From the IMG/VR virus record IMGVR_UViG_3300047325_000170, positions 47,161 to 111,160 of that record: a stretch of 64,000 bases of DNA; one strand, given 5' to 3'. Every line of letters starts with the position of its first letter. Within the stretch, counting starts at the first letter, position 1. Positions 36,172 through 64,000 of the stretch are shown piece after piece. The notes under the pieces were generated by a model that ran no database searches, was not told the DNA's origin, and saw only the letters and a program-made list of their open reading frames with translations. Position numbers and translations under genes: made by a program. The DNA comes from a virus.

Positions 36172-37497
36172 TTAGAGGACGTCGATTGCGATACGAGCCG
36201 CCCCAACCGAACCCTTGAAGTCGATGTTGCTGGGAACGCCGACGACCTGGTTCTCAAGGCTGGTGTAGGTGATCGTGTAGGTCTCAGTGCCAGTCTGGTT
36301 CGCAGTCTGGATGTACACGATACCGCGGTAGCGGTCAACGTAGTAGTCGACGAGCTCAACGAGCGGGGTGGTTGCTGCGGCGTTGTTGTACACGAGCATC
36401 TTGGTCGGGAAGGGGTGGTCGGGCGTTGGGTTGGTCGCACCCTGACCGTCCTTCGCAACACGCTTATGCGAGAGGGTGATCGTGTTGATGCCGTTCGCGT
36501 ACGAGTTCTGCGTGCCGTTACCGAGAGACTCGGAGTAGTCGACCGCAGCCATGCGCGCGCCGTCGGTGAGGCCGGGGATACCCATGGCATCCCAGAGCTG
36601 TTCGGGGAAGCGCGTCACAAGGTCGTTGAAGCTGTAGAACGCCGGGTACTGGTTCTGCTGGGCGTTGAGGTCGGGGCGCTGGGCGGTCGTGGTGCCCGAG
36701 GTGCCGCCGGTCGTGTCGCCCGCAGATCCATCAGGAGTCTGAAGCGGCGCGTTGACGTCATACGGGTTGAACATTTCCCACTGTCCCATACCTTGCGCGT
36801 CCATGCTCATCCACTCCCACATCACCCACTGCAGCCAGCCCTGGACGGGGATGGAGCGGTCGATCATGATGACCTGACCGATCTTCTGGGTGGTCTCGGT
36901 GTCGAGGCTCTGGTCCCACTTGGTGACCTTGCCGTTGGGATCGCTCATCACGTGGTCGCCCATGTTGAGGACCGAATTGCCACCGAGTGCCGCATTGTCA
37001 TACACGCAGCCCCACTTCATCGACTGTGCGAGGGACGCATTGGACGAGAAGTACGGAAGCGAGATGTACGACTTGCGGGTGATCGTTGGGTAGTTACCCT
37101 TGAAGCGGTCGTTCAGACGACGGTAGCAGTTCTTGAACGCGATACCGATGGGAACGTTCGCCGTGCGGGTGTAGGAGCCGTAGGGGCCAGTCACGGTCGT
37201 GGTCGTACCGCCATTGGCGATAGTGAGGCACGGAGCCATGAAGTCGACGTCGTAGTCCTTAGCGTATGGTGCGCCGTAGCGGTGAGCAACGACGGTACCC
37301 TTGGGGATCTGGACTTCGGCCGGACGGAAGTAGGTGCCCGAGAACGGATAGGTGAATTGGACCGGAAGGTACGGGTCCGTAATGAAGACTTCCGCGATCT
37401 GCTTGAGATCATCGGAGATGATCAGCTGATTCTGGGTGCGGAAGACGTTATTGGGACCGTCTTCGAGGATCCACGAACCACCATTAGGTAGAAGCAT
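36172..37497 (-). CDS. Putative capsid decoration/structural protein
   Basis: Between protease and capsid genes; strong RBS GGAGG. Confidence 0.6.
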   Translation of the reverse strand: MLLPNGGSWILEDGPNNVFRTQNQLIISDDLKQIAEVFITDPYLPVQFTYPFSGTYFRPAEVQIPKGTVVAHRYGAPYAKDYDVDFMAPCLTIANGGTTTTVTGPYGSYTRTANVPIGIAFKNCYRRLNDRFKGNYPTITRKSYISLPYFSSNASLAQSMKWGCVYDNAALGGNSVLNMGDHVMSDPNGKVTKWDQSLDTETTQKIGQVIMIDRSIPVQGWLQWVMWEWMSMDAQGMGQWEMFNPYDVNAPLQTPDGSAGDTTGGTSGTTTAQRPDLNAQQNQYPAFYSFNDLVTRFPEQLWDAMGIPGLTDGARMAAVDYSESLGNGTQNSYANGINTITLSHKRVAKDGQGATNPTPDHPFPTKMLVYNNAAATTPLVELVDYYVDRYRGIVYIQTANQTGTETYTITYTSLENQVVGVPSNIDFKGSVGAARIAIDVL

Positions 37498-37600
37498 TAG
37501 CTGTTATCCTCCAGACTGTTGGGGCGAAGTCTTCCACCGCTACAACAGTGCAGGTTTGACTAGCAACTTGCATGCCTACTACCGGGGTAGGCTCGGGTTC

Positions 37601-42443: not shown

Positions 42444-43460
42444 TTAACCTACGTGATAGAACTCCTCAGCCGCTAAGACTGGGTAGTCGCCTAGCCGTAC
42501 AAGGGTGAAGGCATCGTGCTCGTCGAGATCAACACGGATCAAGCTATCTTCCTTGATGTCCTGGCTAATGAGTCGCTTTGCGATGGGAGATTCGAGATGG
42601 CGGATAAGAGTTCGTTTGATCTCACGCGCCCCGTACTCCCGGCTGAAGCCTTCGCGGAAGAGCTTCGTTTGGAGCTTCTCGCCGAGTTCAATGCGCACGA
42701 GATGACGGGTCAGGCGACTATTGAGATCGGCGATGAGGCGCTCGAAGATCTTCTCTTGTTGCTCGAGGGTCAAGGGATCGAAGTGGACTTGGCCGGTAAG
42801 CCGGTTGATGAACTCTGGGCGGAAGGTCTTCTTCACTTCGGTCTGAACTTGCGCCCGGATCGAACTTTCCGAAGGGCGCTCGGGACGAAAGCCAAGGTCC
42901 TTACGATCACTGTAGTTCGAGGCGCCAACGTTACTCGTCAGGAAGATCAAAGCCTTACTGAAGTCGAGACGCCGGCCCTTACTGTCCGTCATGATCCCTG
43001 AGTCCATGACCGAGAGCCACGCATCGAAGAAGCGACTATGAGCCTTCTCGATCTCATCGAGCAAGAGGATGAAGCCGCCCTCGGGGTGAGAGATGTTCTC
43101 GATCTGCTTGACGAACATCGATGACTGGTCGCTGCCGACGTATCCCGGCGGGCTCCCAAAGAGCTTGGCAACTTCGTGATCGAGAGAGAACTCCGAGCAG
43201 TCGATGCGAATGAAGGCATCGGGCGGCTGCGTGAACTCCGCTAACTTCTCAACAAGCCAGGTCTTCCCGACTCCCGTTGGGCCAAGGAAGAGGAAGCTGC
43301 CAATAGGACGTTTCCCATCGTGTAGCCCCGCTTGATAGCGCTCGAGCGCTCCAAGGATCGCTTCGATAGCTGCTTCCTGCCCAATGACCGTTTCGTTGAG
43401 AAGATACTTGAGCTCAAAGAGCTGGGTCTGAAGATCTGCCCGGTCGTTAAGCTTTGCCAT
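42444..43460 (-). CDS. ClpA/B/C-type AAA+ ATPase, D2 domain only
   Basis: VIGQEAAI, RPIGSFLFLGPTGVGKT, RIDCSEF, LFGSPPGYVG, LLLDEIEKAH, FRPEFINR, YGAREIKR. Confidence 0.9.
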   Translation of the reverse strand: MAKLNDRADLQTQLFELKYLLNETVIGQEAAIEAILGALERYQAGLHDGKRPIGSFLFLGPTGVGKTWLVEKLAEFTQPPDAFIRIDCSEFSLDHEVAKLFGSPPGYVGSDQSSMFVKQIENISHPEGGFILLLDEIEKAHSRFFDAWLSVMDSGIMTDSKGRRLDFSKALIFLTSNVGASNYSDRKDLGFRPERPSESSIRAQVQTEVKKTFRPEFINRLTGQVHFDPLTLEQQEKIFERLIADLNSRLTRHLVRIELGEKLQTKLFREGFSREYGAREIKRTLIRHLESPIAKRLISQDIKEDSLIRVDLDEHDAFTLVRLGDYPVLAAEEFYHVG

Positions 43461-52853: not shown

Positions 52854-53226
52854 CCTGAGATCAAGAACCAGAGCGAGCAAGAGCCGGCCCCCCTCCCCAG
52901 GTGCGACAAAAGTAGGAGGGCCGTAAGAGATCTCAAAAGTGAGAAATCTGTCAGGGGGTCCACGTCCTACGGACCCCTTGCGCCATGCGGGTTCCGAGCC
53001 CCCGGGGTCGGATCCGGGCGGAGTCTTCCGCACGGGACTAGTTCTGGTCACCCAGCCACGTTGCCAAGGGGCGGGGGCGTGGACGCCTCGGCTATCCATG
53101 CTGCCGTCTGACGCCTCGGTTACTGTCGCAACAACCTGCACCGCAGGGTACGCCACGTGTGCCAGGCGTCTTCCCTTTTTCCTCCTACTCTCACTTGCCT
53201 TCCGTCTCTTGATTGGAGATCTTATC

Positions 53227-53376
53227 GTGAACGCACTCTACTCGTTCTTCGACTCCGTCGCTCCCACCATCATCCGCCTCGGCTTCGGTACCGGGCTCGT
53301 CACCGTCATCTGGTACGCTGCTACCTACCTCTTCTCATCTATCGTACATAGTCTGGTCCATGCAGTGGGGGGCTAG
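53227..53376 (+). CDS. Small membrane protein (49 aa)
   Basis: GTG behind GGAG; hydrophobic. Confidence 0.6.
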   Translation: MNALYSFFDSVAPTIIRLGFGTGLVTVIWYAATYLFSSIVHSLVHAVGG

Positions 53377-53461
53377 CGCCCCCCACACCCCCCGCCTCCC
53401 TACGACCACGACTTGAGTGGCGGGGAGGCGAATCACCTTCTCTACTTCGGGAGACTTCACC

Positions 53462-53659
53462 ATGCGTATGCTCTTCTACAAGGCCTCGATCTTCTCTTGG
53501 GTCAACAATGCCACGGGCAAGACCTGGTCGAAGGACTTCAAGCTCGGTCTCGGTGCAGCCATGATCTACATGACCGCTGCCCAACTGACCGGCTACCTCG
53601 CTCGTCTCGGCGCGACCAAAGAAGGCCGAGACGTCCTCAAGTCCCTGGTCTCACGCTAG
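53462..53659 (+). CDS. Hypothetical protein (65 aa)
   Basis: ATG behind GGAG; followed by terminator 53664-53689. Confidence 0.65.
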   Translation: MRMLFYKASIFSWVNNATGKTWSKDFKLGLGAAMIYMTAAQLTGYLARLGATKEGRDVLKSLVSR

Positions 53660-53957
53660 TCCCGAACCCCCGCTGCGGCGGGGGTTCTTACTTGCGTCCT
53701 CGTGCTCTCTGTATAGCGAATCTTCGGGTGCTCTTTGTAGCGAATTCCCAGTCCCTCGCTGGTCTGTATAGCGAATCTGTGGAGGGACTGGCACCCCACC
53801 CTTTGGGAAGCGATTTCCATCCCCTTCCCTCCACCCATCCCCACAAATCGCCACCATTCCACGGGGCAGTCACGGGTGCGCACACACATCACTCAATATA
53901 CGACGTCCCAAGGGGCTGGGATGTAGACAACTTGCTTCTCATTGAAGGAGATCTCAC

Positions 53958-54245
53958 ATGGATCAAGCCACCTACCAGGCCAAGGTCGACGTCGCTTTCA
54001 TGAACCTCTACCACAGCCTCAAGAAGAACCCGTTCTCGCGTTGGCTGGCGGTCGTGAAGTTCTACACCGTCATCATGGAGCACAATCCCAAGCTCAAGGG
54101 CGCCGAGCTCAAGACGGCCGCCAAGCGTGAGGCACTCGATGCAGCTCGTCGCCAGATCCTCAAGGTCGCGGCGCAATGCGTGAACGAAGCGAACCTCGCG
54201 CCTACCGTCAAGGTAATCGAGGACCTCGTCGCCCTTCCCGCCTAG
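53958..54245 (+). CDS. Hypothetical protein (95 aa)
   Basis: RBS AAGGAG; terminator follows. Confidence 0.75.
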   Translation: MDQATYQAKVDVAFMNLYHSLKKNPFSRWLAVVKFYTVIMEHNPKLKGAELKTAAKREALDAARRQILKVAAQCVNEANLAPTVKVIEDLVALPA

Positions 54246-54320
54246 AGACCCACCCTCAGCAATCGCGCTGGGGGTTTTCTCTTTTCACGCTGCGGAGAGG
54301 ATGGGACATGGAGGTGACCT

Positions 54321-54506
54321 ATGGAACTCGAACCCAACATCGCGCAGATGGACGCCACGGGCAAGACCTACTGCGGCATGTGCTCCGAAGCGGTGTATGC
54401 GGACTCGGACTGGCACACGGTCCCCACAACCACCGTCTCGGGCGCCCACACTATCCTCTGCCACTCGTGCTACCTCGACTATACCGCCATCAAAGCAGAA
54501 ATCTAG
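54321..54506 (+). CDS. Small zinc-finger protein
   Basis: CGMC...CHSC; RBS GGAGGT. Confidence 0.7.
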   Translation: MELEPNIAQMDATGKTYCGMCSEAVYADSDWHTVPTTTVSGAHTILCHSCYLDYTAIKAEI

Positions 54507-54655
54507 TACCTCGGCATGGCGGACACCGGCCCCTAAAATCGCTACCAACCCTCGCCCTATGGGTGAGGGTTTTCTCCCTCCATGCTCACAAATCGCTACC
54601 CACCCCTGAAAATCGCCACGAACTTTTGAGTGGGAGATCCCTGGAGGTAATCAAC

Positions 54656-54850
54656 ATGATTCGTGATATGTCCGGCTATCGCCCGCCACGCAAGCTCTGC
54701 GTCGACATGACCGATGAGGAGTTTCGTGACTACGAAGACTGGGAAATCTGGCGTACCGCGGTCTACATACGACCACGTTATCAGCTCATTCCCTCGAGAC
54801 AAACCCCGACGGGTCGCATCCTCATGCTGGTGCACTCAAAGCCACGCTGA
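54656..54850 (+). CDS. Hypothetical protein (64 aa)
   Basis: ATG behind GGAGGT. Confidence 0.65.
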   Translation: MIRDMSGYRPPRKLCVDMTDEEFRDYEDWEIWRTAVYIRPRYQLIPSRQTPTGRILMLVHSKPR

Positions 54851-54857
54851 TGAGGGG

Positions 54858-54985
54858 CGGGGAGGCGGACAGGCAGCTCGGCGCGACCGAGTCGGTCCCA
54901 TGCGTACGGTTTAGCATTCGGTGCTTCCAGCATGGGGAGAGGCTAGCATAGGCCCTCGCCCTGTCCCACCCTTTTCGTCACCCCA
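54858..54985 (+). ncRNA. Candidate multi-branched structured RNA or leader
   Basis: GGACAGG/CCTGTCC closing stem around three hairpins; directly after motif copy 54842. Confidence 0.4.
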
Positions 54986-55007
54986 AACTCTCCACAGGAG
55001 ATCAAGC

Positions 55008-55061
55008 ATGGTGTACACCGAAGTCGACGGCGTGCTCGCGAAGATTATCTTCAAGAAATAG
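55008..55061 (+). CDS. 17-aa minigene MVYTEVDGVLAKIIFKK
   Basis: RBS AGGAG, stop, then terminator 55067-55100. Confidence 0.5.
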   Translation: MVYTEVDGVLAKIIFKK

Positions 55062-55140
55062 CGCCCAAACCCACAACGCTGCGGCGTTGTGGGTTTTTCT
55101 TCCCCCACGCTTGGAAGAGGGTGAGCTGCGGAGGTGAACC

Positions 55141-55359
55141 ATGGAAGAACTCGACTGGCTTCTAGCATGGGAAGAGGCTTGGGAACCCTGCATCAGCTGC
55201 TATCGGAGAGCAGCTCTGCCCGACGTGACCGAACGTGAGCTCGTCGAGCTGGGTGCCATGTATGGCCCGGGCGGCGAGTACGACGGGCTCTACAGTGGCG
55301 GCCTTTGCCGTCTGTGCGAGGCAGGTGCCGAGCGTGGCCGTGACCCTAGCGAGAGCTAG
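55141..55359 (+). CDS. Hypothetical protein (72 aa) with CxxC pairs
   Basis: RBS GGAGGT; shares AMYGPGGEYDGLY with 56092..56523. Confidence 0.7.
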   Translation: MEELDWLLAWEEAWEPCISCYRRAALPDVTERELVELGAMYGPGGEYDGLYSGGLCRLCEAGAERGRDPSES

Positions 55360-55411
55360 GGTCTCTTTCTTTTCCAACCATCTCGCTCAGGTTCCACGTT
55401 GTGAAGTGGAA

Positions 55412-55716
55412 GGGATGCGGAAGCAAAAGGAGGCCGCCATACTCAAGGCGGACCGCTGCCCGGAAGTATCGTCGTATCGGAAGCGTAGGTGATTCTCGGT
55501 AAATCCTACGCATTGCCGACGGGACGAGTGACCGGTGACTGGTTGCATAAAACCCTATTCATACGATGCTTGTGAGCAACATAAGACATAACCCTGCACC
55601 CTCCCCGGCATGCGCCCCCGGTGAGACCCACGAGAGGGAAAGACATGAGGTTGCAGGCGGTTGGGTATCGTATGGCTTCCACTCTCCCCACAATGCTCCG
55701 GCATTGTGGGGTTTTC
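55412..55716 (+). ncRNA. Candidate ~300-nt structured ncRNA
   Basis: Bounded by motif copy 55394 and terminator 55687-55716; four nested helices; no convincing RBS-led ORF. Confidence 0.5.
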
Positions 55717-55742
55717 TCAACTTTCTTCATAGGAGAGCTACC

Positions 55743-55994
55743 ATGGCTTACAATCGCCAGAAGATTGCCATTGCTTCGGCAATCGAAAAGCAAGAGCTCA
55801 ACATCGTGGTTCGCGAGCTCGTCGCTGCGCGCCATCGCTACGAGCGCTCCTTCCAACCGGGCAGCCACATCAATCGTGATTTCGCTCAGCACGAGCTCAT
55901 GATTGCCAACTCCAACTACCTGCGTTTAACCCTCAGCAACGGGTTAAACCATATGCGCTTCAAGTACCCTGAGTTCTACTCAGACCTGGTTTAG
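55743..55994 (+). CDS. Hypothetical protein (83 aa)
   Basis: ATG behind AGGAG. Confidence 0.7.
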   Translation: MAYNRQKIAIASAIEKQELNIVVRELVAARHRYERSFQPGSHINRDFAQHELMIANSNYLRLTLSNGLNHMRFKYPEFYSDLV

Positions 55995-56091
55995 CTCTAT
56001 GAGCCTAAGTTAGATGTAGCCACGCTCCCAAGGGGATGCGAGGTGAAGCCTATCTTGGGCTCAGCTTTTTCGCTTTAACCTGGAGGTTAAC

Positions 56092-56523
56092 ATGGCCACA
56101 CAAGTCGATTTCACGCCAATCTTCGAATCCCGCGAGTACAAGCTCGCTCTCGAGCGTGCCGAGAAGCCCGCTCAGTTCCCCTATCGCGTACGCAAGGCGG
56201 CGTACCAGCGCAAGACCTACACGAAGTGGGATGCCGCTATCGACCGCCTACGCGAGGCGTACACCACCAAGCTGCAAGGCGAGTACACGCGCCTTCGTCT
56301 CAAGGAGGCGAAAACCGAGCTGGAAGGCCAGCTCAGCCTGCTCGAGGATGACGGGTTCGCGCCTGAACCCGATCCGGATCAGGCCTACGAGCGCTGGCTC
56401 GAGCGCGGTGACCACGAGACCGAACGTGACCTCGCCGAGCACGATGCCATGTATGGCCCGGGCGGCGAGTACGACGGGCTCTACAACCGCTGCTCGCAGC
56501 CCGACGACGAGCTGCCCTTCTAG
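56092..56523 (+). CDS. Hypothetical protein (143 aa), acidic C-terminus ending DDELPF
   Basis: RBS GGAGGT; terminator follows. Confidence 0.75.
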   Translation: MATQVDFTPIFESREYKLALERAEKPAQFPYRVRKAAYQRKTYTKWDAAIDRLREAYTTKLQGEYTRLRLKEAKTELEGQLSLLEDDGFAPEPDPDQAYERWLERGDHETERDLAEHDAMYGPGGEYDGLYNRCSQPDDELPF

Positions 56524-56634
56524 GGCATACCCCCGCTTCGGCGGGGGTATCCTCTTCCCACATCTGCCCACCCATGAAAATCGCCACGAACTTTTCGCCA
56601 CGCTTTAAGTGGGAGAGCCACGGAGGTAACGCAG

Positions 56635-56931
56635 ATGAAGCAAGTAGGCACCTTGGTCTTGCCCGATGGCGAGATGCTCCAGGTTTTCCAGACCCAGTAC
56701 ACCGATGGCCAAACCGCCATCGAGATCTTCGCGGCGGATGGCCCGTACGCACGCCTCAGCGTGAATATGGCGCCCGACTACGTCTGCCAAGACGGCGAGT
56801 TCGTTGTCAAGTCGTGGTCCGGGAACGAGGAGATCGTCGAGATCGCCGAGGCCTCGGGTCTCTTCGAGTACGCCGGGAAAGTCGCTGGCAACGGCTTGGT
56901 CTTCGGACCGGTGTGGAAACTCAAGGGCTAG
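56635..56931 (+). CDS. Hypothetical protein (98 aa)
   Basis: RBS GGAGGT; terminator follows. Confidence 0.75.
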   Translation: MKQVGTLVLPDGEMLQVFQTQYTDGQTAIEIFAADGPYARLSVNMAPDYVCQDGEFVVKSWSGNEEIVEIAEASGLFEYAGKVAGNGLVFGPVWKLKG

Positions 56932-56999
56932 AGGCCCGCCCCCGACCCAGCTTGATGCTGGGTCGGGGGCTTCTCACAAACCAAGAAAGGAATGATACG

Positions 57000-57185
57000 A
57001 TGAAAACTAAAGCCATTTACAAGTTCGCAACCGGCGACGTAATTCCCGAAGGCGCTGTCTATCTGAATACCGTCGTCCAAACCCGCGCACGGGGCGTTCG
57101 AGGGAGGAATCAGCCAGAAGCGGCGGGCCCGTGGTCGCCTTGCTGGCTGGTCTGGCATTACTTTCTCGTTGAGGTTGACGCGTGA
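57000..57185 (+). CDS. Hypothetical protein (61 aa)
   Basis: RBS AAAGGA; MKTKAIYKF... Confidence 0.6.
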   Translation: MKTKAIYKFATGDVIPEGAVYLNTVVQTRARGVRGRNQPEAAGPWSPCWLVWHYFLVEVDA

Positions 57186-57349
57186 ATAGCGAGCTTTACA
57201 AACTGTGGCAAGAGATCGGTGCTCTACGGGAACGCGTTCAAGAACTCGAGGCGTACGCCGAAGAACTCGACGCGGCCAACGTGGCCTTAAGCAAGCAGGT
57301 GGAGATCTTGACGAGCACTAGAGGGTCTTCACGCTTTCCACGCTCATAG
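57182..57349 (+). CDS. Small coiled-coil protein (55 aa)
   Basis: GTG overlapping previous stop; RBS GAGGT. Confidence 0.55.
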   Translation: MNSELYKLWQEIGALRERVQELEAYAEELDAANVALSKQVEILTSTRGSSRFPRS

Positions 57350-57431
57350 TGGAAGGGCCGCGCTGGCACCCCCGCGTTAGCGGGGGTTTCCTCTTTCCAC
57401 GCTCGTAGTGGGTGTGAACTGGAGGTGACCT

Positions 57432-57599
57432 ATGAACTCATGCCACGTGTGCAACAAGGCTCTCACGCACGCAGAAGCCATCGATGAGGACCTCAGCCTC
57501 ATCATTCAGGAACCTATCTGGATGCGGGTCAGCATCTGTGCAGCATGTGCTGCATCAATGGATGCTGCCAGGAACGCCGACGTCTTCAGCCCCAACTAA
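57432..57599 (+). CDS. Small zinc-finger protein (55 aa)
   Basis: CHVC...CAAC; RBS GGAGGT; terminator follows. Confidence 0.65.
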   Translation: MNSCHVCNKALTHAEAIDEDLSLIIQEPIWMRVSICAACAASMDAARNADVFSPN

Positions 57600-57667
57600 C
57601 CTTAGCCCCGCTTATGCGGGGCTTCTCTCTTGCCACGCTGCGAGAGGCTAAGAATTGGAGGTGAAAG

Positions 57668-58087
57668 ATGGCTATTACCAGCTTTAGTGGCCCGTGGGCC
57701 TGCCTATCGAACTTCTGGCCAGTCATGATCTGGGTCGAAGACGAACTCTACCCGAGCGCCGAGCATGCCTTTCAGGCAATGAAGACGCTCAACTCTGCCG
57801 AACGTCGCTCTATCGCGCTGGCCGCCACTCCCGGCCAAGCGAAGAAGGCCGGGCGCGCGCTATCCCTGCGAGAAGACTGGGAGCGCGTCAAGGATGAGCA
57901 GATGCTGAAGATCCTACGCGTCAAGTTCGCCGTCGCCCCTCTCGCCGAGAAGCTGCTCGAGACGGGCGACCAGGAACTCGTCGAAGGGAACTGGTGGGGT
58001 GATACCTACTGGGGCGTCTGTAAGGGCACCGGGCAGAATAAGCTCGGCAAGAGTCTGATGACCGTGCGAGCTGAGCTTAAGGGGTAG
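57668..58087 (+). CDS. NADAR (YbiA-like) family protein
   Basis: LSNFW...YPSAEHAFQAMK...DWERVK..M...KF...LLETG...LVEGN.WGDTYWG...GQNKLGKSLM.VR. Confidence 0.9.
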   Translation: MAITSFSGPWACLSNFWPVMIWVEDELYPSAEHAFQAMKTLNSAERRSIALAATPGQAKKAGRALSLREDWERVKDEQMLKILRVKFAVAPLAEKLLETGDQELVEGNWWGDTYWGVCKGTGQNKLGKSLMTVRAELKG

Positions 58088-58153
58088 GCGTAAGCCTACC
58101 CCTTCTCTCTTGCCACGCTGTGAAGTGGATGTGAGTTGGAGGTAATCATCACT

Positions 58154-58633
58154 ATGAGAAAGACCATCTTCCTCGCACTCAAGTGGACCCAAGACACAGG
58201 TTCAGCTTTCGCTGTCCAAGAACTAGCTGCTGGCGCCCCCTTCGGTCTCGAGGGTTGGGTTGTCCTCTCTTGGTGGTCGACGTACCACCAAGCAGAACAA
58301 GCCAGGTCGCTGTACGAAACCCACTATCTCCTTCACGGAGATGAGGACGACAGCTACATCGGCGAAGCCGTCGAGTACATGCCAGACAATGCCGATCATC
58401 CGCTCAACCTGCTCTCTTGGTTCATCAAGAACTGTCTCACGGATCTGGCTCAGAACACCAGTCCCCTCGTCATCACCCCGGTCAACGACGAGTACACGTC
58501 GCTCGAGGTTCACAACGAGCACGCGCATACCCGCTTGGGCTGCCTTACTCCCAGCATGCGGCGTGCCGTCTACCTGATGGTGGCAAAGTATAACCTGGAC
58601 CTCCGCCGATTTGCAGCAGAAGTGGGGATGTGA
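58154..58633 (+). CDS. Hypothetical protein (159 aa)
   Basis: ATG behind GGAGGT. Confidence 0.7.
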   Translation: MRKTIFLALKWTQDTGSAFAVQELAAGAPFGLEGWVVLSWWSTYHQAEQARSLYETHYLLHGDEDDSYIGEAVEYMPDNADHPLNLLSWFIKNCLTDLAQNTSPLVITPVNDEYTSLEVHNEHAHTRLGCLTPSMRRAVYLMVAKYNLDLRRFAAEVGM

Positions 58634-58661
58634 GGTGGCATAGATCCACGCTTGGGAGGGG

Positions 58662-58792
58662 GAGTGACGTGAGGATCTGTGCGTCCGAAGCTCAGAACCC
58701 AAACTCCCTGTGTAAGCAGGAGCATGCCCGTTGGTGAGTTGTTCATTCAACCACCAACGGGTCTTTCTTTTCAAGCTATCGCTCACGTCAAA
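58662..58792 (+). ncRNA. Candidate ~130-nt structured RNA
   Basis: After motif copy 58646; TGACGTGAG/CTCACGTCA 9-bp closing helix with internal hairpins. Confidence 0.4.
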
Positions 58793-58904
58793 GGTGATGT
58801 CTTGAGTTGAAGCTTGGGAATGCTCATTCCGTCTGTGCTTTTCCACGCTAGGAGTGGGAGGGTCGTGCCAGAGGCATTTGCCTCACACCTGGAAGGAGAT
58901 CTCC

Positions 58905-59270
58905 ATGGCAGACAACACCCAAGCGGATCGTAAGCCAACCGAACTCGACGAGGCCCTCGCGGCCGTTCCCGTCGGTGGTATCGCGATCTACAACCTGCGT
59001 CCGCAAGACGCGAAGTCGCTGAAAGCCCGTTTCACCGTCCTCTTCGGCGGTCTCGGCGCAGTCATCGGCTGCTCGTACTTCGTCGGCCAGAATGGCCCGT
59101 ACGTCCAGCATTCCGCCAAGACGGACCGTATCGTCAACGGCAAGCCGGACTACATCACCACGGCGAAGTTCACGCCCGAGGTGCAGGCCAAGATCACCAA
59201 CGCGGTGGGCAACATGCTCGCCAAGTTGGAACCGCCTACCAAGGCGAAACCGACCGCCGAACTGGTCTAA
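58905..59270 (+). CDS. SpoVG-like nucleic-acid-binding protein
   Basis: LKARFTV...GQNGPYVQ.S.K...DY...PEVQAKITNAV resembles the SpoVG pattern; RBS AAGGAG. Confidence 0.55.
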   Translation: MADNTQADRKPTELDEALAAVPVGGIAIYNLRPQDAKSLKARFTVLFGGLGAVIGCSYFVGQNGPYVQHSAKTDRIVNGKPDYITTAKFTPEVQAKITNAVGNMLAKLEPPTKAKPTAELV

Positions 59271-59435
59271 GCAAACCAACCACGTCAAATCCCCCTTGTT
59301 TCGCACTTGCGAGCAAGGGGGATTTTGCTTCCTAGTCCAAGCATTTCTCCCCTGTCCAAGCACGGCTCAGTTCAAATGCCGTAGTTGGGCCAGGATGACG
59401 CCGTGGAGTGGAAGTGCCGTGATTGGAGGTTCACC

Positions 59436-59567
59436 ATGAACCAGCGTACCTCAGCCTGGACGATCCTTTGGATCATCCTCTCAACGACCGTTCTCTGCTA
59501 CCTTGCTTACCAAGGCATAGGCCATGTCCTCGACATCCCCTGCAACCACATCGGAGCAATCTGTTGA
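59436..59567 (+). CDS. Small membrane protein (43 aa)
   Basis: RBS GGAGGT; one hydrophobic helix. Confidence 0.6.
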   Translation: MNQRTSAWTILWIILSTTVLCYLAYQGIGHVLDIPCNHIGAIC

Positions 59568-59735
59568 TCTACGACATCGTAAACAAGGTCAAGATCCGTC
59601 CCCGGACGATCATCAGAGCTGAGATGCCTGAAGATGCTCGAGCTCGCTGGAATCAGGTTTACGCTCGCCTACGGGCCGGAAAGTCTCCCGTCGAATAGTC
59701 CACGTCCGAAGTGGTGGAGAATTGGAGGATCTCTC

Positions 59736-59897
59736 ATGATCACACGCACCATCTTCACCGGATTCCCCGGCCTCCTCACGGGAGTGCTCGCGGGCGGATC
59801 GCTCTTCGCAAGCTTCGGGTGGAAGATCATCTTCGGATTGATCATCATCCCGTTCGTTCCATTTCCCTTTAACGTTCCAGTTATGTTGCTGATCTAA
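59736..59897 (+). CDS. Small membrane protein (53 aa)
   Basis: RBS GGAGG; hydrophobic. Confidence 0.6.
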   Translation: MITRTIFTGFPGLLTGVLAGGSLFASFGWKIIFGLIIIPFVPFPFNVPVMLLI

Positions 59898-60022
59898 TGG
59901 CAAAGATCAAGCAGCAAATCTACCCGCTGCTCGGTACCCTGCTCTTCGCGAGCCTCGTCATGACCCTCGGGACCGAAGCAGCCACCTACCTGCGTATCTA
60001 CACCGCGAGGTACCTCACATGA
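59897..60022 (+). CDS. Small membrane protein (41 aa)
   Basis: TAATG coupling to upstream gene; hydrophobic. Confidence 0.5.
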   Translation: MAKIKQQIYPLLGTLLFASLVMTLGTEAATYLRIYTARYLT

Positions 60023-60138
60023 GCCATTTCATTCTCAACTTGGCAACCGCCGCCAATCCCTTCCTCGTCGGTGGGGTGATCTTCGTGGTCACGCTCTTTG
60101 TTCTGATGGTTTTCTTGTCGTTCAACAAGGCCATCTAA
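60019..60138 (+). CDS. Small membrane protein (39 aa)
   Basis: ATGA coupling; hydrophobic. Confidence 0.5.
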   Translation: MSHFILNLATAANPFLVGGVIFVVTLFVLMVFLSFNKAI

Positions 60139-60225
60139 TACCCCGGCCGACTGTGCCCAGATGCTCTTGATGGTCACGCCTCGAGTGGAAGAAGGTCGAA
60201 TCCCATCGTCCAAAGGAGGTCTAAC

Positions 60226-60405
60226 ATGCTAACCCTCGCAGGTCTCAGCGCGCTCGGCATGCACATGGTCATGTCCGCCAGCGCTATCAAGCTCAAGTAT
60301 GCCATCGTGACCGGCAATCTGCCGTACCTGGCACACCACGAAGTCTACAAAGTCACGATGCATGCGGTACGTCCGCTGCTCTTCTGGCATCCGCTGGGAC
60401 GCTAA
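60226..60405 (+). CDS. Hypothetical protein (59 aa)
   Basis: RBS AAGGAGGT. Confidence 0.65.
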   Translation: MLTLAGLSALGMHMVMSASAIKLKYAIVTGNLPYLAHHEVYKVTMHAVRPLLFWHPLGR

Positions 60406-60434
60406 AGAATCTCTTCAGCATAAGGAGTAACCAC

Positions 60435-60689
60435 ATGGTCATCCTCGTTGTCGTCGTCTGTTCGATCATTTACCTTGTCGCACGCGGCGGCAACGAGGCC
60501 TTCGGCTCCAGCATCGGCACCTTCATGATCTTTGCTGGCTTTGGCCTCATAGCACTCATGGCGCTCTTCGCTCTCTCAGCGATCATCGTGCCTCTCCTGA
60601 TGGGACTCTTCATTCCCATCGCTTTCATCTGGGGACTCTTCCTGATCTTTCGCTGGGTCTTCTTCGGACCCAAGGAGGCCTGCAAGTGA
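60435..60689 (+). CDS. Membrane protein (84 aa)
   Basis: RBS TAAGGAG; mostly hydrophobic. Confidence 0.7.
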   Translation: MVILVVVVCSIIYLVARGGNEAFGSSIGTFMIFAGFGLIALMALFALSAIIVPLLMGLFIPIAFIWGLFLIFRWVFFGPKEACK

Positions 60690-61140
60690 AGATCCTTACG
60701 TCGTATCTTCGCTACCAATACTACATGGCCAAGGCCCGCTACTACAACCTCAAGGTCAAGTACCTTGAGTGGCGCTGGATGCGCACCTTTCACCGATGAG
60801 CAAGCAATACCGCTGCTCCGGTTCTATCGAAGCAGGCTGGGCGCTCATTGGCAGCGTGAAGAACTTGATTCTTTACGCTGCCAATGAGTCTTGCGTGGAT
60901 GTCAAGATAAAAGTTACTGCCGGCCTCCGCGGTCGCACCATCTACTTTGCCGTGGCGGATGAGGATCATGCGAAGGTCCTACAATTCCAGACGATGGTGA
61001 AGTCGATCCGTAAAACGGCATGTTAGGCAACTGATGGGAAAGTTTGGTTTCTTCATCAGAGGTAAACTCTTCAACCTCTTCGTGGGGGTTTGGGGGCAAC
61101 GCCCCCATATCTACCTCTACCCACGAATCAAGCTCTGGCC

Positions 61141-61527
61141 ATGGGGAAAGAAACGAAAATGAGCTGGCAACACCAAGAGACCCGCATGTACCTGGGAGGT
61201 ACCCTTCCCTTAGTCTCCTTCGCCAACGACCAAGGAGACCGCGCAGAGTTCTTGCCCTGTAACCCAGAGAAGCAAGGGCTCTATCCCGATTTCCTCGGGT
61301 ACTTGAAGTTCTATCTTCACGGTTCCCATACCGAGACCAAAGTCGGCCTCAACGTGAAGGGGGGCGAGATCACCTGGCACACCACGAGCGAGGCGACCCG
61401 CCGCTTCGCCAAGGAAGACTTCCTCGCGTTGATCGGGGAAGGCATTCGCTACGCCGAGCGAGCGGGATTTACGTTCCCCTCCTACTTTCGCTTGAAGAAG
61501 TCGCCTCCCACCCTTCACATCATCTAA
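61141..61527 (+). CDS. Hypothetical protein upstream of Cas7-like gene
   Basis: Co-oriented ORF ending 9 nt before next start; start uncertain (61141 or 61159). Confidence 0.55.
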   Translation: MGKETKMSWQHQETRMYLGGTLPLVSFANDQGDRAEFLPCNPEKQGLYPDFLGYLKFYLHGSHTETKVGLNVKGGEITWHTTSEATRRFAKEDFLALIGEGIRYAERAGFTFPSYFRLKKSPPTLHII

Positions 61528-61536
61528 GGAGAAGGC

Positions 61537-62235
61537 ATGCCCAGAACGGCAAAACCCACCGATATCGATCTCAAAGCCGCCGCCAAGAAAGCCATCGCAG
61601 AAGCGACCTCCGGCTCCCACGATCTCACGATCACGATCCCCGAGATCGAGAAGCGCAAGGTCGTCATCCGCGTCGTCGGCGACACCCCGCTCATCACCCA
61701 TTGCTGGTCCGAGAAGGCCAAAGAGATGATGCGGATCAAGCAGACCAAGGGTGCGGCCCTGGCAAAGTCCGCCAAGAACGCAGCCGAAGACGTCGATGGA
61801 GCCACCTACTGGCTCGACAAGGAGAAAGGGCACGTCGGCTTCCCGGCCATTGCATTCAAAGCATCGATGGTTGATGCGGCGGTTGCCCTGGGCGGCAAGA
61901 AGACCGAAACGCGCCGAGCCTTTCGCATCGTCGGCATTCCCACCGTCCAGTACGGTGAGCTCGTGAAGATCGAGTACCAAGAGATGGTCCAGCGCGAAGA
62001 CATGGTGCGCGTTGGCATGGGCACGGCCGATCTTCGCTACCGTCCCGAATTCCGTGGCTGGCACGCCGACGTCACCTTCATCTACGACGCACGCCAGATC
62101 AGTCCGGCACAAATCATCTCCCTGCTCAACCAGGCCGGCTTCTCAACGGGCATCGGTGAGTGGCGGCCCGAACGGGATGGATCCTACGGGATGTTCTCGG
62201 CCACCGAAATCATCGGAGACATCACCCCACAATGA
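61537..62235 (+). CDS. Stand-alone Cas7/RAMP-like protein
   Basis: RAMP-like order of elements: IRVVGDTPLITH, FPAIAFKASMVDAA, RPEFRGW, terminal Gly-rich loop AGFSTGIGEWRPERDGSYGMF; RBS TAAGGAG. Confidence 0.7.
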   Translation: MPRTAKPTDIDLKAAAKKAIAEATSGSHDLTITIPEIEKRKVVIRVVGDTPLITHCWSEKAKEMMRIKQTKGAALAKSAKNAAEDVDGATYWLDKEKGHVGFPAIAFKASMVDAAVALGGKKTETRRAFRIVGIPTVQYGELVKIEYQEMVQREDMVRVGMGTADLRYRPEFRGWHADVTFIYDARQISPAQIISLLNQAGFSTGIGEWRPERDGSYGMFSATEIIGDITPQ

Positions 62236-62738
62236 CCAAAGCTGTTCAAGCGCGCCTCGATGAGCTCGCCGGGAGATCCGGCGGCCTCACCGTGGCCACC
62301 GTCCTCAAGGATGCCCGCAATCCCAAGAGCCCCCTCCACACCGAGATCGATTGGGATAAGGAGCGCAACTACCAAGCCGGTCTCAAAGAGCAAGCTCGCG
62401 AACTCATTCGCCGCTATACCGTTTCTTACGTCAAGGGCGAAAGGAAGTTCCAGAAGTACATCTACAATCCACGGACCCATCAACGCGAGAGCGTCGTGCA
62501 AGCCCTCGATTCAGCACAGGTCGCAAGCAACATCGCGATCACCCTTCACGACGAACTCGTGAACTTTGCCAATCGCAATGCGGCCTACTTCAAGATGTTT
62601 CCCAACCTCAAGAAGGCCTCATGGATGCTCGACCAACTCATCGATGAGTTCAAGACTGTCAGCAAGACGATCTCGGCTGCTGCGACAACCAAACCCCTCA
62701 AGACCACCCCGAAGACCACCCGCAAGAAGGTCGCCTAG
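62232..62738 (+). CDS. Accessory protein (168 aa) coupled to Cas7-like gene
   Basis: ATGA overlap; GGLTVATVLKDARNPKSPLH..IDWD...QARELIR; basic tail. Confidence 0.7.
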   Translation: MTKAVQARLDELAGRSGGLTVATVLKDARNPKSPLHTEIDWDKERNYQAGLKEQARELIRRYTVSYVKGERKFQKYIYNPRTHQRESVVQALDSAQVASNIAITLHDELVNFANRNAAYFKMFPNLKKASWMLDQLIDEFKTVSKTISAAATTKPLKTTPKTTRKKVA

Positions 62739-62743
62739 ATCCC

Positions 62744-63088
62744 GGCAGGCTCGGCGTGGCGGGGCACGTCCGGGCGCGGTTAGGCCCGGCACGGCACGGC
62801 AGGCGTGGCTTGGCCCGGCAGGTCCAGGCCTGGCCTGGCTTGGCAGGTAAGGCAAGGCCCGGTGCGGCCCGGCGTGGCACGGCAACGCAAGGACCGGCAA
62901 GGCAGGCTTGGCAAGTCGGGGCGCGGTGCTGCTGGGCATGGCCAGGTCCCGCTTGGCACGGCAGGCAGGGTGTGTCCAGGCGAGGCGGGGCTTGGCAAGG
63001 CTTGGCAAGATGCGGCGTGGCAGGCGGGGCAGGCAAGGCAGGTAGGGCTTGGCTGGGCAAGGCCGGGCCCGGCGTGGCAGGCAGGGCA
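62744..63088 (+). repeat. Non-coding GGY-NN pentamer array punctuated by GGCA (candidate guide-RNA array)
   Basis: ~60 pentamers with near-constant GGC/GGT and variable dinucleotide; phase reset by GGCA tetramers. Confidence 0.85.
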
Positions 63089-63166
63089 AACATAATCCCG
63101 TTCCGAGATCCACGTCTCGAGTGGTTGAGTCGTGAAGTTATCTCTCTCTTTTCAAGGAGTTCACTT

Positions 63167-63379
63167 ATGTTCACCGCAGGCTTTCTCTTTGGCCTGGGCG
63201 CCTTCATGGCGGCCCCGGCCGGTACTTACCTCGGCATCGGCTTGCTCGGTGTCGTACGTAGCGTGAGCCAAATGGCCAACGGCACCGTCGACTTCGCAGC
63301 CAACCGCGTGGCCGACAGTCTCAACACCGTCACCGAAAAGATCTCGCAGATCCGCCACAAGCAAAAGGCGGCTGCCTAG
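63167..63379 (+). CDS. Small membrane-associated protein (70 aa)
   Basis: RBS AAGGAG after motif copy 63110; terminator 63388-63419. Confidence 0.7.
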   Translation: MFTAGFLFGLGAFMAAPAGTYLGIGLLGVVRSVSQMANGTVDFAANRVADSLNTVTEKISQIRHKQKAAA

Positions 63380-63444
63380 AATGCACGGAAGGCTTACCTA
63401 CTACAGGTAAGCCTTCTTTGTATCCCTTCAGGTTCCAATGAAAA

Positions 63445-63918
63445 CTATACGGTCATGTCTTCTAAGGGAAAACAACCATGATGCTCCGCGATGCGGTCCT
63501 CGTCCCACCAATCTCTTTCGACGAAGCTCGGGTCCGCCAACAAGCGAAGGCTGACTACTGCCGTAACGCCCATCTTCTCTTGCCCAAGGGCTATCAACAT
63601 CGGTATGCCCACGAGGATCCCAAGCTGATCGATATGGCTTTCCACGAGGCAGGACATATCCTTATCGCTCAGGTCCTTGGATGGGAAGTCAACTACTCTA
63701 CTATCGAGGTATTTAGTAGGGCCGAAAGTCTGCCCGATACGAACAAAGCCTTTACGTACATCAACTACCCTTCCTGCAGTCGCAATCATATGGGCTTGGC
63801 AACCTTCAAGAGTTTCGCCCGACTTGCCATGGCTGGTCATGCCGCAGCCATACAACTGTACGGATGTCATTACCACGCTGGGTCTCGCGGCGACATCAAC
63901 GGTCTGAAATTGCGCCAA
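63445..63918 (-). CDS. Hypothetical protein (157 aa), convergent block
   Basis: TTG start directly after the TAG of an ORF entering from the window edge. Confidence 0.45.
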   Translation of the reverse strand: MAQFQTVDVAARPSVVMTSVQLYGCGMTSHGKSGETLEGCQAHMIATAGRVVDVRKGFVRIGQTFGPTKYLDSRVVDFPSKDLSDKDMSCLVESHIDQLGILVGIPMLIALGQEKMGVTAVVSLRLLADPSFVERDWWDEDRIAEHHGCFPLEDMTV

Positions 63919-64000
63919 CTAACCTGTCCGAAAGCCAAAGATGAACCACTCGCGAAGATTATCCAGCAAGCCGTACGCTACGACAAGCCGCTTATCGAAC

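What the first reader, a model, noticed from the sequence alone, without database searches (positions are those of the whole stretch)
61537..63088. Candidate non-CRISPR RNA-guided system: lone Cas7/RAMP-like gene + accessory gene + GGY-NN pentamer array
Seen: a 232-aa protein with RAMP-like elements ends in a Gly-rich loop (GIGEWRPERDGSYGMF). It is translationally coupled to a 168-aa gene, and 5 nt after that stop a ~345-nt array begins with no terminator between. No cas1/2/3/5/6 or repeat-spacer array is in the window. Established: Cas7/RAMP proteins polymerise along guide RNA with fixed nucleotide periodicity. Inference: each subunit grips one constant GGY while the variable NN positions are displayed, so the target is written as a gapped code, possibly against competing phages or host genes. 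From memory this resembles the recently reported phage 'VIPR' architecture; I cannot verify that here, so novelty needs checking.
Basis: partly seen in the sequence, partly recalled or inferred. Interest (0 to 1): 0.95.

Follow-up and report, generated by a model that had tools for sequence, protein, structure and literature searches.

The report
Phage VIPR locus, staggered guide array

Summary
ORF1 (61537-62235, 232 aa) overlaps ORF2 (62232-62738, 168 aa) by ATGA. Five bases after the ORF2 stop, a 346-nt array of GGY-NN pentamers runs from 62744 to 63089. It is the only such array on either strand of the 111-kb phage record.

Of 113 related loci, 96 carry a same-strand GGY array beside the homologue. 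Of the 80 viral loci, 60 also carry an ORF2 homologue.

The array is of the 'staggered' type named in the VIPR preprint. The register slips by -1 at GGCAGGY, which brackets guides of 9-12 units here. This grammar is conserved across the clade, including Mycobacterium phage Quico. I found no structured 3' tail, ribozyme, CRISPR array or Cas1.

No credible target emerged in the phage itself, in relatives, or in exact-pattern scans of the viral and metagenome collections.

Verdict: a real VIPR and a new member of a known kind. This scan already holds 535 VIPR notes from other genomes. Interest is modest.

The parts
61537..62235 (+). vipr gene: 232-aa Vipr (stand-alone RAMP/Cas7-like) protein. Predicted parts: RRM core, thumb hairpin (about residues 149-173, with Y168-R169-P170) and G-loop (204-219, with E208-W209-R210).
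62232..62738 (+). vap-like accessory gene, 168 aa, coupled to vipr by an ATGA overlap. It has a conserved N-terminal domain (motif NSPLH..FEWD..AA...R..QAR), long C-terminal helices and a basic T/P/K-rich tail.
   Evidence: A homologue lies just downstream of vipr in 60 of 80 related viral loci. phrog_15946, E 4e-8. Alignment A2. No Pfam, PDB or fold match. Atlas neighbours are unnamed viral clusters.
62744..63089 (+). Staggered vrRNA array: 64 GGY-NN units with ten -1 register slips, each at GGCAGGY.
   Evidence: The junction grammar is conserved in relatives.
62748..62802 (+). Predicted guide V1: 11 units, NN = TC GT GG AC (CG) GC TA CC AC AC AG.
   Evidence: In-phase block between GGCAGGY junctions.
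62802..62846 (+). Predicted guide V2: 9 units, one of them degenerate (GTCCA).
62846..62905 (+). Predicted guide V3: 12 units, 59 nt.
62905..62964 (+). Predicted guide V4: 12 units, 59 nt, three degenerate units.
62964..63023 (+). Predicted guide V5: 12 units, 59 nt.
63023..63089 (+). Distal part of the array: two 2-unit blocks, an 8-unit block (V8, 63041-63080) and the terminal GGCAG-GGCAA.
   Evidence: Many relatives' arrays also end with GGCAGGYAA.
63110..63124 (+). Boundary marker: CCACGTCTCGAGTGG, the last of 17 +strand copies of a CCACG-N5-6-AGDGG motif. It precedes the next small gene, so the array sits at the 3' end of its transcription unit.
   Evidence: 17 copies on + between 53056 and 63110, and 1 on -.
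63387..63417 (+). First strong hairpin terminator downstream (13-bp stem, then UUUGU), after the 70-aa ORF 63167-63379.
   Evidence: -25.7 kcal/mol, z -6.2.

Best explanation
The locus is a VIPR (Viral Interference Programmable Repeat) system of an uncultured tailed phage: vipr, then a vap-like gene, then a 'staggered' vrRNA array.

Shown here: ORF1 is a homologue of the structurally solved SUSP1 Vipr and has a Cas7-type RAMP fold. The array follows the GGY/NN rule. The gene-gene-array order is conserved across more than 100 relatives.

Inferred from the published mechanism: the array is transcribed by read-through from vipr-vap, because only 5 nt and no terminator separate them. Vipr protomers polymerise on the RNA, one per pentamer, each sequestering a GGY. 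In the SUSP1 structure these contacts are made by thumb R138 and by G-loop D177, W178 and R179, which align here to R169, E208, W209 and R210. The displayed NN dinucleotides pair with double-stranded DNA that reads NNxNNx (the 1-nt skip rule), and the bound filament represses transcription of a competitor element or another target.

My own inference on guide boundaries: in this clade guides are delimited not by a structured 3' tail but by the 4-nt unit GGCA inside GGCAGGY. That unit shifts the register by -1 and so ends one filament-sized guide (9-12 units here) and starts the next.

The confidence of 0.9 is for membership of the VIPR family. The biological role (silencing a competitor) I put at about 0.6, and the register-break model of guide boundaries at about 0.45.
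For: - Sequence homology to PDB 36pp_D 'SUSP1 Vipr protein': E 3.3e-9 for the single sequence and 1.7e-11 for the profile. The alignment puts GIGEWRP on GVGDWRP and YRP on YRP. Those SUSP1 positions are the GGY contacts reported in 10.64898/2026.04.26.720927.
- R169 and R210 are invariant and E208 and W209 nearly invariant in 41 homologues.
- Array: unique in 2 x 111 kb. Across the clade's arrays all 16 dinucleotides occur at NN, while GGY is fixed with C 71% and T 29%.
- Linkage: 68 of 80 viral and 28 of 33 bacterial-genome loci have an in-phase GGY array on the same strand, against 2 arrays on the opposite strand in all. A vap homologue is present in 60 of 80.
- Staggering: all ten -1 slips in the window are at GGCAGGY. 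In relatives 262 of 359 4-nt gaps are GGCAGGY, and distances between slips peak at 44, 49, 54, 59 and 64 nt, i.e. 5n-1. In-phase blocks are mostly 9-12 units long, close to the published 9-16 repeats per vrRNA. The preprint's fig. S18 legend describes staggered arrays with 1-nt overlaps.
- Phage context: terminase and portal families; IMG/VR virus record.
Against: - Nothing here shows that the array is transcribed or that the protein binds it.
- No natural target was found. The best 1-nt-skip scores against the phage's own genome, 80 related loci and exact-pattern hits in the viral and metagenome collections are all at the level of shuffled guides or of chance expectation.
- The structured 3' tail or pseudoknot that caps SUSP1-type vrRNAs is absent. 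How guides are matured or capped is therefore unknown, and the preprint states that staggered arrays, unlike two other architectures, were not confirmed by small-RNA sequencing.
- About 13 of the roughly 70 units are degenerate.
- The distal third of the array has three very short blocks that may not give functional guides.
- The vap gene has no detectable similarity to anything characterised.
Confidence: 0.9

Rival explanations
1. It is a genuine VIPR, but its guides are aimed at host genes (for example defence or other conserved genes), or they act as decoys or regulators, rather than at competing phages or satellites. The protein-RNA machinery would be the same and only the biological role would differ.
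For: No competitor-element target was found. Other notes in this scan claim that guides elsewhere spell conserved motifs of host defence genes (AI notes, one of them partly overturned on later checking). The October 2026 preprint documents vrRNAs that redirect VIPR to host decoy sites.
Against: No host is known for this phage, so this could not be tested. The only multi-contig hit cluster falls in unrelated bacterial genes (V1; a MocR/GntR regulator and a GHMP kinase). It is explained by the fact that an NNx pattern fixes a peptide by construction.
Confidence: 0.25
2. The array is a decaying or non-functional remnant: vipr and vap are intact but the guides are no longer used. That would explain the degenerate units and the very short distal blocks.
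For: About 13 degenerate units; three blocks of only 2 units at 63023-63041 and 63080-63089; no targets found.
Against: Five blocks keep canonical lengths of 9-12 units with intact GGCAGGY brackets. Internal degeneracy is described as frequent in working vrRNAs. Both genes are intact and translationally coupled. Relatives' arrays look the same.
Confidence: 0.07
3. The GGC-rich tract is not RNA-guide DNA at all. It would be a low-complexity coding region (ORF 62756-63379 or the minus-strand ORFs), a G-quadruplex or recombination tract, or origin iterons.
For: Long open frames cross it on both strands. It is G-rich with regularly spaced GG.
Against: A 5-nt period with -1 slips cannot preserve any reading frame. 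The signal is strand-specific and is conserved as GGY at the nucleotide level while NN varies freely. It is linked to a Vipr homologue in 96 of 113 loci across several phyla. The frames are a by-product of G/C-rich repeats.
Confidence: 0.02

Closest known systems
VIPR systems with staggered vrRNA arrays (bioRxiv 10.64898/2026.04.26.720920, main text and fig. S18 legend)
   Same: Stand-alone Vipr RAMP, one accessory gene and no cas genes or CRISPR array. GGY/NN pentamer array in which the end of one vrRNA overlaps the start of the next by 1 nt. Phage-encoded.
   Different: Nothing essential. The preprint gives no sequence grammar in the text I could read. Here the junction is specifically GGCAGGY, often followed by an A-rich NN, it also opens and closes arrays, and blocks are 5n-1 nt long. 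Which of the seven VIPR types this clade belongs to could not be determined, because the type tables and figures are not held.
Type II VIPR of Escherichia phage SUSP1 (Vipr structure PDB 36pp; 10.64898/2026.04.26.720927)
   Same: Homologous Vipr protein with the aligned GGY-contact residues kept. Vipr followed by an accessory gene and a downstream array. About 12 repeats per guide.
   Different: Only distant sequence similarity, detectable over the C-terminal half. ORF1 has an N-terminal extension of about 35 residues. SUSP1 vrRNAs are separate units of about 100 nt, each capped by a conserved 3' tail with a pseudoknot, whereas here guides abut with no tail. The accessory gene has no tblastn-detectable relative in any GenBank phage, SUSP1 included.
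Vipr loci of cultured actinobacteriophages, e.g. Mycobacterium phage Quico gp57 (NC_028751)
   Same: Closest homologues among cultured phages: 40-41% identity over 81% of ORF1. Same staggered GGCAGGC-punctuated array.
   Different: In Quico the array lies upstream of vipr, in the intergenic region beside the immunity cassette. The gene downstream of vipr there is not detectably similar to ORF2.
Cas7 backbone subunits of class 1 CRISPR effectors (Csm3, Cmr4, type VII Cas7, Cas7-11 domains)
   Different: 9-16% identity. No Cas10, Cas5, Cas6 or small-subunit partners seen, no Cas1 and no repeat-spacer array. The period is 5 nt rather than 6, with three bases per unit sequestered. The target is dsDNA read by a gapped code.

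Membership tests
VIPR system | Vipr protein homologous to characterised Vipr proteins | tested here: met
   PDB 36pp_D SUSP1 Vipr: E 3.3e-9; profile E 1.7e-11.
VIPR system | Residues that hold GGY in the SUSP1 structure (thumb R138; G-loop D177, W178, R179) | tested here: met
   They align to R169 and to E208, W209, R210. R169 and R210 are invariant and E208 and W209 nearly invariant in 41 homologues. D177 is replaced conservatively by E. SUSP1 H17 and K33 lie outside the aligned stretch, so their equivalents (possibly H55) are inferred only.
VIPR system | RNA array of alternating GGY/NN pentamers (the paper's search criterion was at least 4 units) next to vipr | tested here: met
   64 GGY in 346 nt, 5 nt after the vap stop, same strand.
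VIPR system | Individual vrRNAs of about 9-16 repeats | tested here: met
   In-phase blocks of 11, 9, 12, 12, 12 and 8 units. Across the clade most blocks are 9-12 units. Three 2-unit blocks fall outside the range.
VIPR system | Minimal locus: vipr plus one accessory gene, no CRISPR array or adaptation genes | tested here: met
   Only Cas1 was searched as a family. Other cas genes were not searched one by one.
VIPR system | Encoded by a virus or other mobile element | tested here: met
   IMG/VR virus record of 111,160 nt. Terminase and portal PHROGs.
VIPR system | vrRNAs expressed and co-purifying with Vipr | not testable with these tools
   Needs small-RNA sequencing and pull-down.
VIPR system | Natural targets matching at least 80% of NN positions under the 1-nt skip rule | tested here: inconclusive
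   Own genome, 80 related loci and relatives' guides against this phage all scored at the shuffled-guide level. Exact 18-base patterns gave 1, 1, 4 and 0 viral hits and 7 metagenome hits, all consistent with chance. Collection scans cannot allow mismatches and the host is unknown.
VIPR, staggered-array architecture | Adjacent vrRNAs overlap by 1 nt, the end of one being the start of the next | tested here: met
   Ten -1 slips, all at GGCAGGY. Conserved in relatives: 262 of 359 slips, with spacing 5n-1.
VIPR type II (SUSP1-like) | Each vrRNA capped by a conserved structured 3' tail (pseudoknot) | tested here: not met
   Guides abut directly. There is no conserved sequence after arrays in relatives, no Rfam match and no outstanding fold (z -2.3).
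VIPR accessory proteins vap1-6 | ORF2 belongs to one of the six named vap families | tested here: inconclusive
There is no tblastn match in 50,697 phage records, which include SUSP1-type phages, and no Pfam, PDB or fold match.
CRISPR-Cas class 1 effector | Cas7 accompanied by other effector subunits, a repeat-spacer array and usually Cas1/Cas2 | tested here: not met
   No repeat-spacer array and no Cas1. The flanking genes are unrelated small phage ORFs.

The most novel reading that the evidence does not exclude
In this large Vipr clade (phages of Alphaproteobacteria, Clostridia, Actinobacteria and others, including cultured mycobacteriophages), guide boundaries are set by a register-breaking 4-nt unit (GGCA within GGCAGGY, often followed by an A-rich NN) instead of a structured tail. 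The -1 slip would itself stop Vipr filament growth and define 9-13-unit guides, giving a tail-less way of measuring and maturing guides that has not yet been shown experimentally. ORF2 would be a new, uncharacterised vap family specific to this clade.
Probability: 0.45. Interest if true: 0.5.

Novelty: new member of a known kind. Interest (0 to 1): 0.3.

Why it matters
It adds a well-documented staggered-array VIPR from an otherwise novel 111-kb environmental phage. It also gives a concrete sequence grammar for that architecture: GGCAGGY brackets, blocks 5n-1 nt long, no tail. The published text names this architecture but says it was not confirmed by small-RNA sequencing.

The same grammar occurs in cultured Mycobacterium smegmatis phages such as Quico, so the maturation question can be tested directly in a laboratory system. 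As a discovery of a system it is not new. VIPR was described in three 2026 preprints, and this scan has already noted it hundreds of times.

Tried and rejected
1. Pfam and PADLOC on ORF1 and ORF2: nothing significant.

2. Target search under the 1-nt skip rule:
- Own 111-kb genome: best scores equal the shuffled-guide null.
- 80 related loci: at the null.
- 241 guides from relatives against this phage: at the null.
- Exact 18-base patterns in viral contigs for V3, V1, V5 and V4 gave 1, 1, 4 and 0 hits. The hits lie mostly in 26-40% GC contigs with no extension beyond the forced positions and no second guide hitting the same locus.
- V1 in metagenome contigs gave 7 hits. Three share a site with 20 of 22 matches and variation only at skip positions. 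The genes there (a MocR/GntR regulator and a GHMP kinase) are unrelated, and an NNx pattern fixes a peptide by construction, so I rejected this as a target.
- V2 and V8 (16 or fewer informative bases) were not scanned, because chance hits would dominate.

4. Ribozyme or tail search: Rfam at E up to 1 found nothing in 60000-64000.

5. Host inference: Vipr relatives span many phyla at 50% identity or less. Terminase relatives are unnamed environmental contigs. The host remains unknown.

7. VIPR type (I-VII) could not be assigned, because the figures and tables are not held as text.

Full report
OBSERVATION

- ORF1 (61537-62235, +, 232 aa) has an AGGAG ribosome-binding site and carries GIGEWRPERDGSYGMF at residues 204-219.
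- ORF2 (62232-62738, +, 168 aa) starts inside the ORF1 stop (ATGA).
- Five bases after the ORF2 stop, a tract of GGY-NN pentamers runs from 62744 to 63089.
- I counted 64 GGY triplets. Most successive spacings are exactly 5 nt. The rest are 6, 10 or 15 nt (degenerate units in the same register) or 4 nt.
- A sliding count of in-phase GGY finds this tract and nothing else in the window on either strand.
- Runs of four or more perfect GGYNN units occur six times in the 111,160-nt record, all inside this tract and all on the + strand.
- No terminator-like site lies between the ORF2 stop and the array. The first strong hairpin terminator is at 63387-63417, after a 70-aa ORF.
- No CRISPR-type repeat-spacer array is in the window, and the record has no Cas1.

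WHAT ORF1 IS

Pfam and PADLOC are silent. PHROGs places it in phrog_4652, function unknown, at E 7e-28.

The decisive result is a direct sequence match to a solved structure, PDB 36pp chain D, 'SUSP1 Vipr protein'. The match is E 3.3e-9 for the single sequence and 1.7e-11 for a 41-sequence profile.

The alignment puts ORF1 Y168-R169-P170 on SUSP1 Y137-R138-P139, and G-I-G-E208-W209-R210-P on G-V-G-D177-W178-R179-P. According to the cryo-EM preprint, R138, D177, W178 and R179 are the residues that hold the GGY bases. R169 and R210 are invariant and E208 and W209 nearly invariant among 41 homologues.

CONTEXT

The window is the last 64 kb of an IMG/VR virus record (linear, CheckV estimate 70% complete). 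It carries terminase, portal and protease genes. The locus lies in a +strand block of small genes, each preceded by a CCACG-N5-6-AGDGG motif. There are 17 copies on + between 53056 and 63110 and one on the other strand. The last copy sits 21 nt after the array, so the array is the 3' end of its transcription unit.

RELATIVES

The protein family is large: 2,992 proteins at E of 1e-3 or better.

- Of 80 related viral loci, 68 carry an in-phase GGY array on the same strand, mostly 0.4-1.2 kb downstream of vipr. One array lies on the opposite strand.
- Of 33 loci in bacterial genomes spanning Alphaproteobacteria, Clostridia, Actinomycetota, Planctomycetota, Verrucomicrobiota and Gemmatimonadota, 28 carry an array.
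- An ORF2 homologue lies directly after vipr in 60 of the 80 viral loci.
- The gene upstream (61141-61527) and the one downstream (63167-63379) are not conserved with the locus.
- Among cultured phages the closest Vipr homologues are in Mycobacterium and Gordonia phages (40-41% and 33-35% identity). Felixounavirus-type coliphages are more distant.
- Mycobacterium phage Quico has the same kind of array in the 400-nt gap upstream of its vipr gene, gp57.

ARRAY GRAMMAR

Every -1 register slip in the window (ten of them) occurs at GGCAGGY.

The slips give in-phase blocks of 11, 9, 12, 12 and 12 units: 62748, 62802, 62846, 62905 and 62964, the last three exactly 59 nt apart. Two 2-unit blocks, an 8-unit block and a terminal GGCAG-GGCAA follow.

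In the arrays of 53 sources (52 related viral loci plus the window itself), 262 of 359 4-nt gaps are GGCAGGC or GGCAGGT. Distances between successive slips peak at 44, 49, 54, 59 and 64 nt, i.e. 5n-1. Most in-phase blocks are 9-12 units long (241 blocks).

The NN after a junction is A-rich, at 48% A in each position. Across the clade's arrays all 16 dinucleotides are used at NN, and Y is C in 71% and T in 29% of units. Arrays typically open and close with GGCAGGY.

This matches the 'staggered vrRNA arrays' of the VIPR preprint, in which vrRNAs derive from positions overlapping by 1 nt and the end of one marks the start of the next (fig. S18 legend). The preprint says that the two other alternative architectures, but not this one, were confirmed by small-RNA sequencing.

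There is no conserved tail, ribozyme or Rfam family. The locus is therefore not of the SUSP1-like (type II) form.

MECHANISM

By homology with the published system, I expect the array to be read through from vipr-vap. Vipr would coat each guide one protomer per pentamer, hiding GGY and presenting NN. The filament would bind dsDNA reading NNxNNx and block transcription.

The step I add by inference is that the 4-nt GGCA unit breaks the register and so defines guide length in place of a tail. None of these steps is shown for this locus.

TARGETS

[quoted passage not shown] - The 80 related loci give null-level scores. So do 241 relatives' guides scanned against this phage.
- Exact 18-base patterns found 1, 1, 4 and 0 viral contigs. 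These are mostly AT-rich contigs with no extension of the match and no second guide nearby.
- The V1 pattern found 7 metagenome contigs. Three share a 20-of-22 site that varies only at skip positions. The genes there are unrelated bacterial genes, a MocR/GntR regulator and a GHMP kinase. Because an NNx pattern dictates a peptide, such clusters arise by construction, and I do not count them as targets.

ORF2

It is conserved with vipr and has a well-modelled N-terminal domain, long C-terminal helices and a basic T/P/K-rich tail. Nothing similar is found in Pfam, the PDB by sequence or fold, or GenBank phages. The ESM Atlas returns only unnamed viral clusters. A nucleic-acid-binding role, as the preprint suggests for vap genes in general, is possible but untested here.

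COMPARISON AND VERDICT

All testable defining features of a VIPR system are met. The type II tail feature is not met, and the staggered-array feature is met. Relative to Cas7 proteins of CRISPR effectors it shares the fold and the one-subunit-per-period principle but not the CRISPR context.

VIPR was published in April-October 2026. Pentamer arrays with Vipr-like neighbours have since been catalogued at scale. This scan already holds 535 VIPR notes from at least 360 genomes.

The finding is real and correctly interpreted, but it is a new member of a known kind. Its residual interest lies in the explicit junction grammar of the untested staggered architecture and in an uncharacterised accessory protein.

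Noticed in passing
window 53056-63124 (+): Seventeen +strand copies of CCACG-N5-6-AGDGG (only one on the - strand), usually 10-25 nt before a GGAGG ribosome-binding site of a small gene. This may be a phage-specific promoter or processing hairpin for the early-gene block. No copy lies between 60174 and 63110, so the VIPR genes may share a transcription unit with the genes from 60226 on.
   Followed up: partly
L095:2093-2368 (Mycobacterium phage Quico NC_028751, about 37299-37574): A cultured M. smegmatis phage has a GGCAGGC-punctuated staggered array upstream of its Vipr homologue gp57, beside the repressor/cro/antirepressor cassette. The features are annotated only as hypothetical proteins. 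It is a tractable model for this array type.
   Followed up: partly
window 63167-63379 (+) and 63387-63417: A 70-aa hydrophobic ORF (probably a small membrane protein) with its own motif and ribosome-binding site follows the array. After it comes a very stable terminator hairpin (-25.7 kcal/mol, z -6.2). It is not conserved next to Vipr in relatives.
   Followed up: partly
window 63478-64000 (+), runs off the end: An ORF with an HEAGH zinc-metalloprotease-like motif and weak hits to Peptidase_M41 and M50B (E about 0.01). It is cut by the end of the record.
   Followed up: no
window 42447-43460 (-): A 338-aa protein matches the C-terminal part of phrog_4871 'ATP-dependent protease' (E 2e-87). 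It sits in the packaging-gene region just upstream of the portal gene, which is an unusual position.
   Followed up: no
window 61078-61108 (+): A GGGGGC-AAC-GCCCCC hairpin (z -3.0) followed by a degenerate copy of the CCACG motif lies just before the non-conserved 128-aa ORF upstream of vipr. It could be a terminator and restart point that would make 61141-63089 its own unit.
   Followed up: partly
L124 (Micromonosporaceae MAG) 1851-2902 and 3601-3660; L080 4189-5346: Some relatives carry very long arrays (0.8-1.2 kb, over 200 units), or arrays on both sides of vipr. Array size therefore varies about tenfold within the clade.
   Followed up: no
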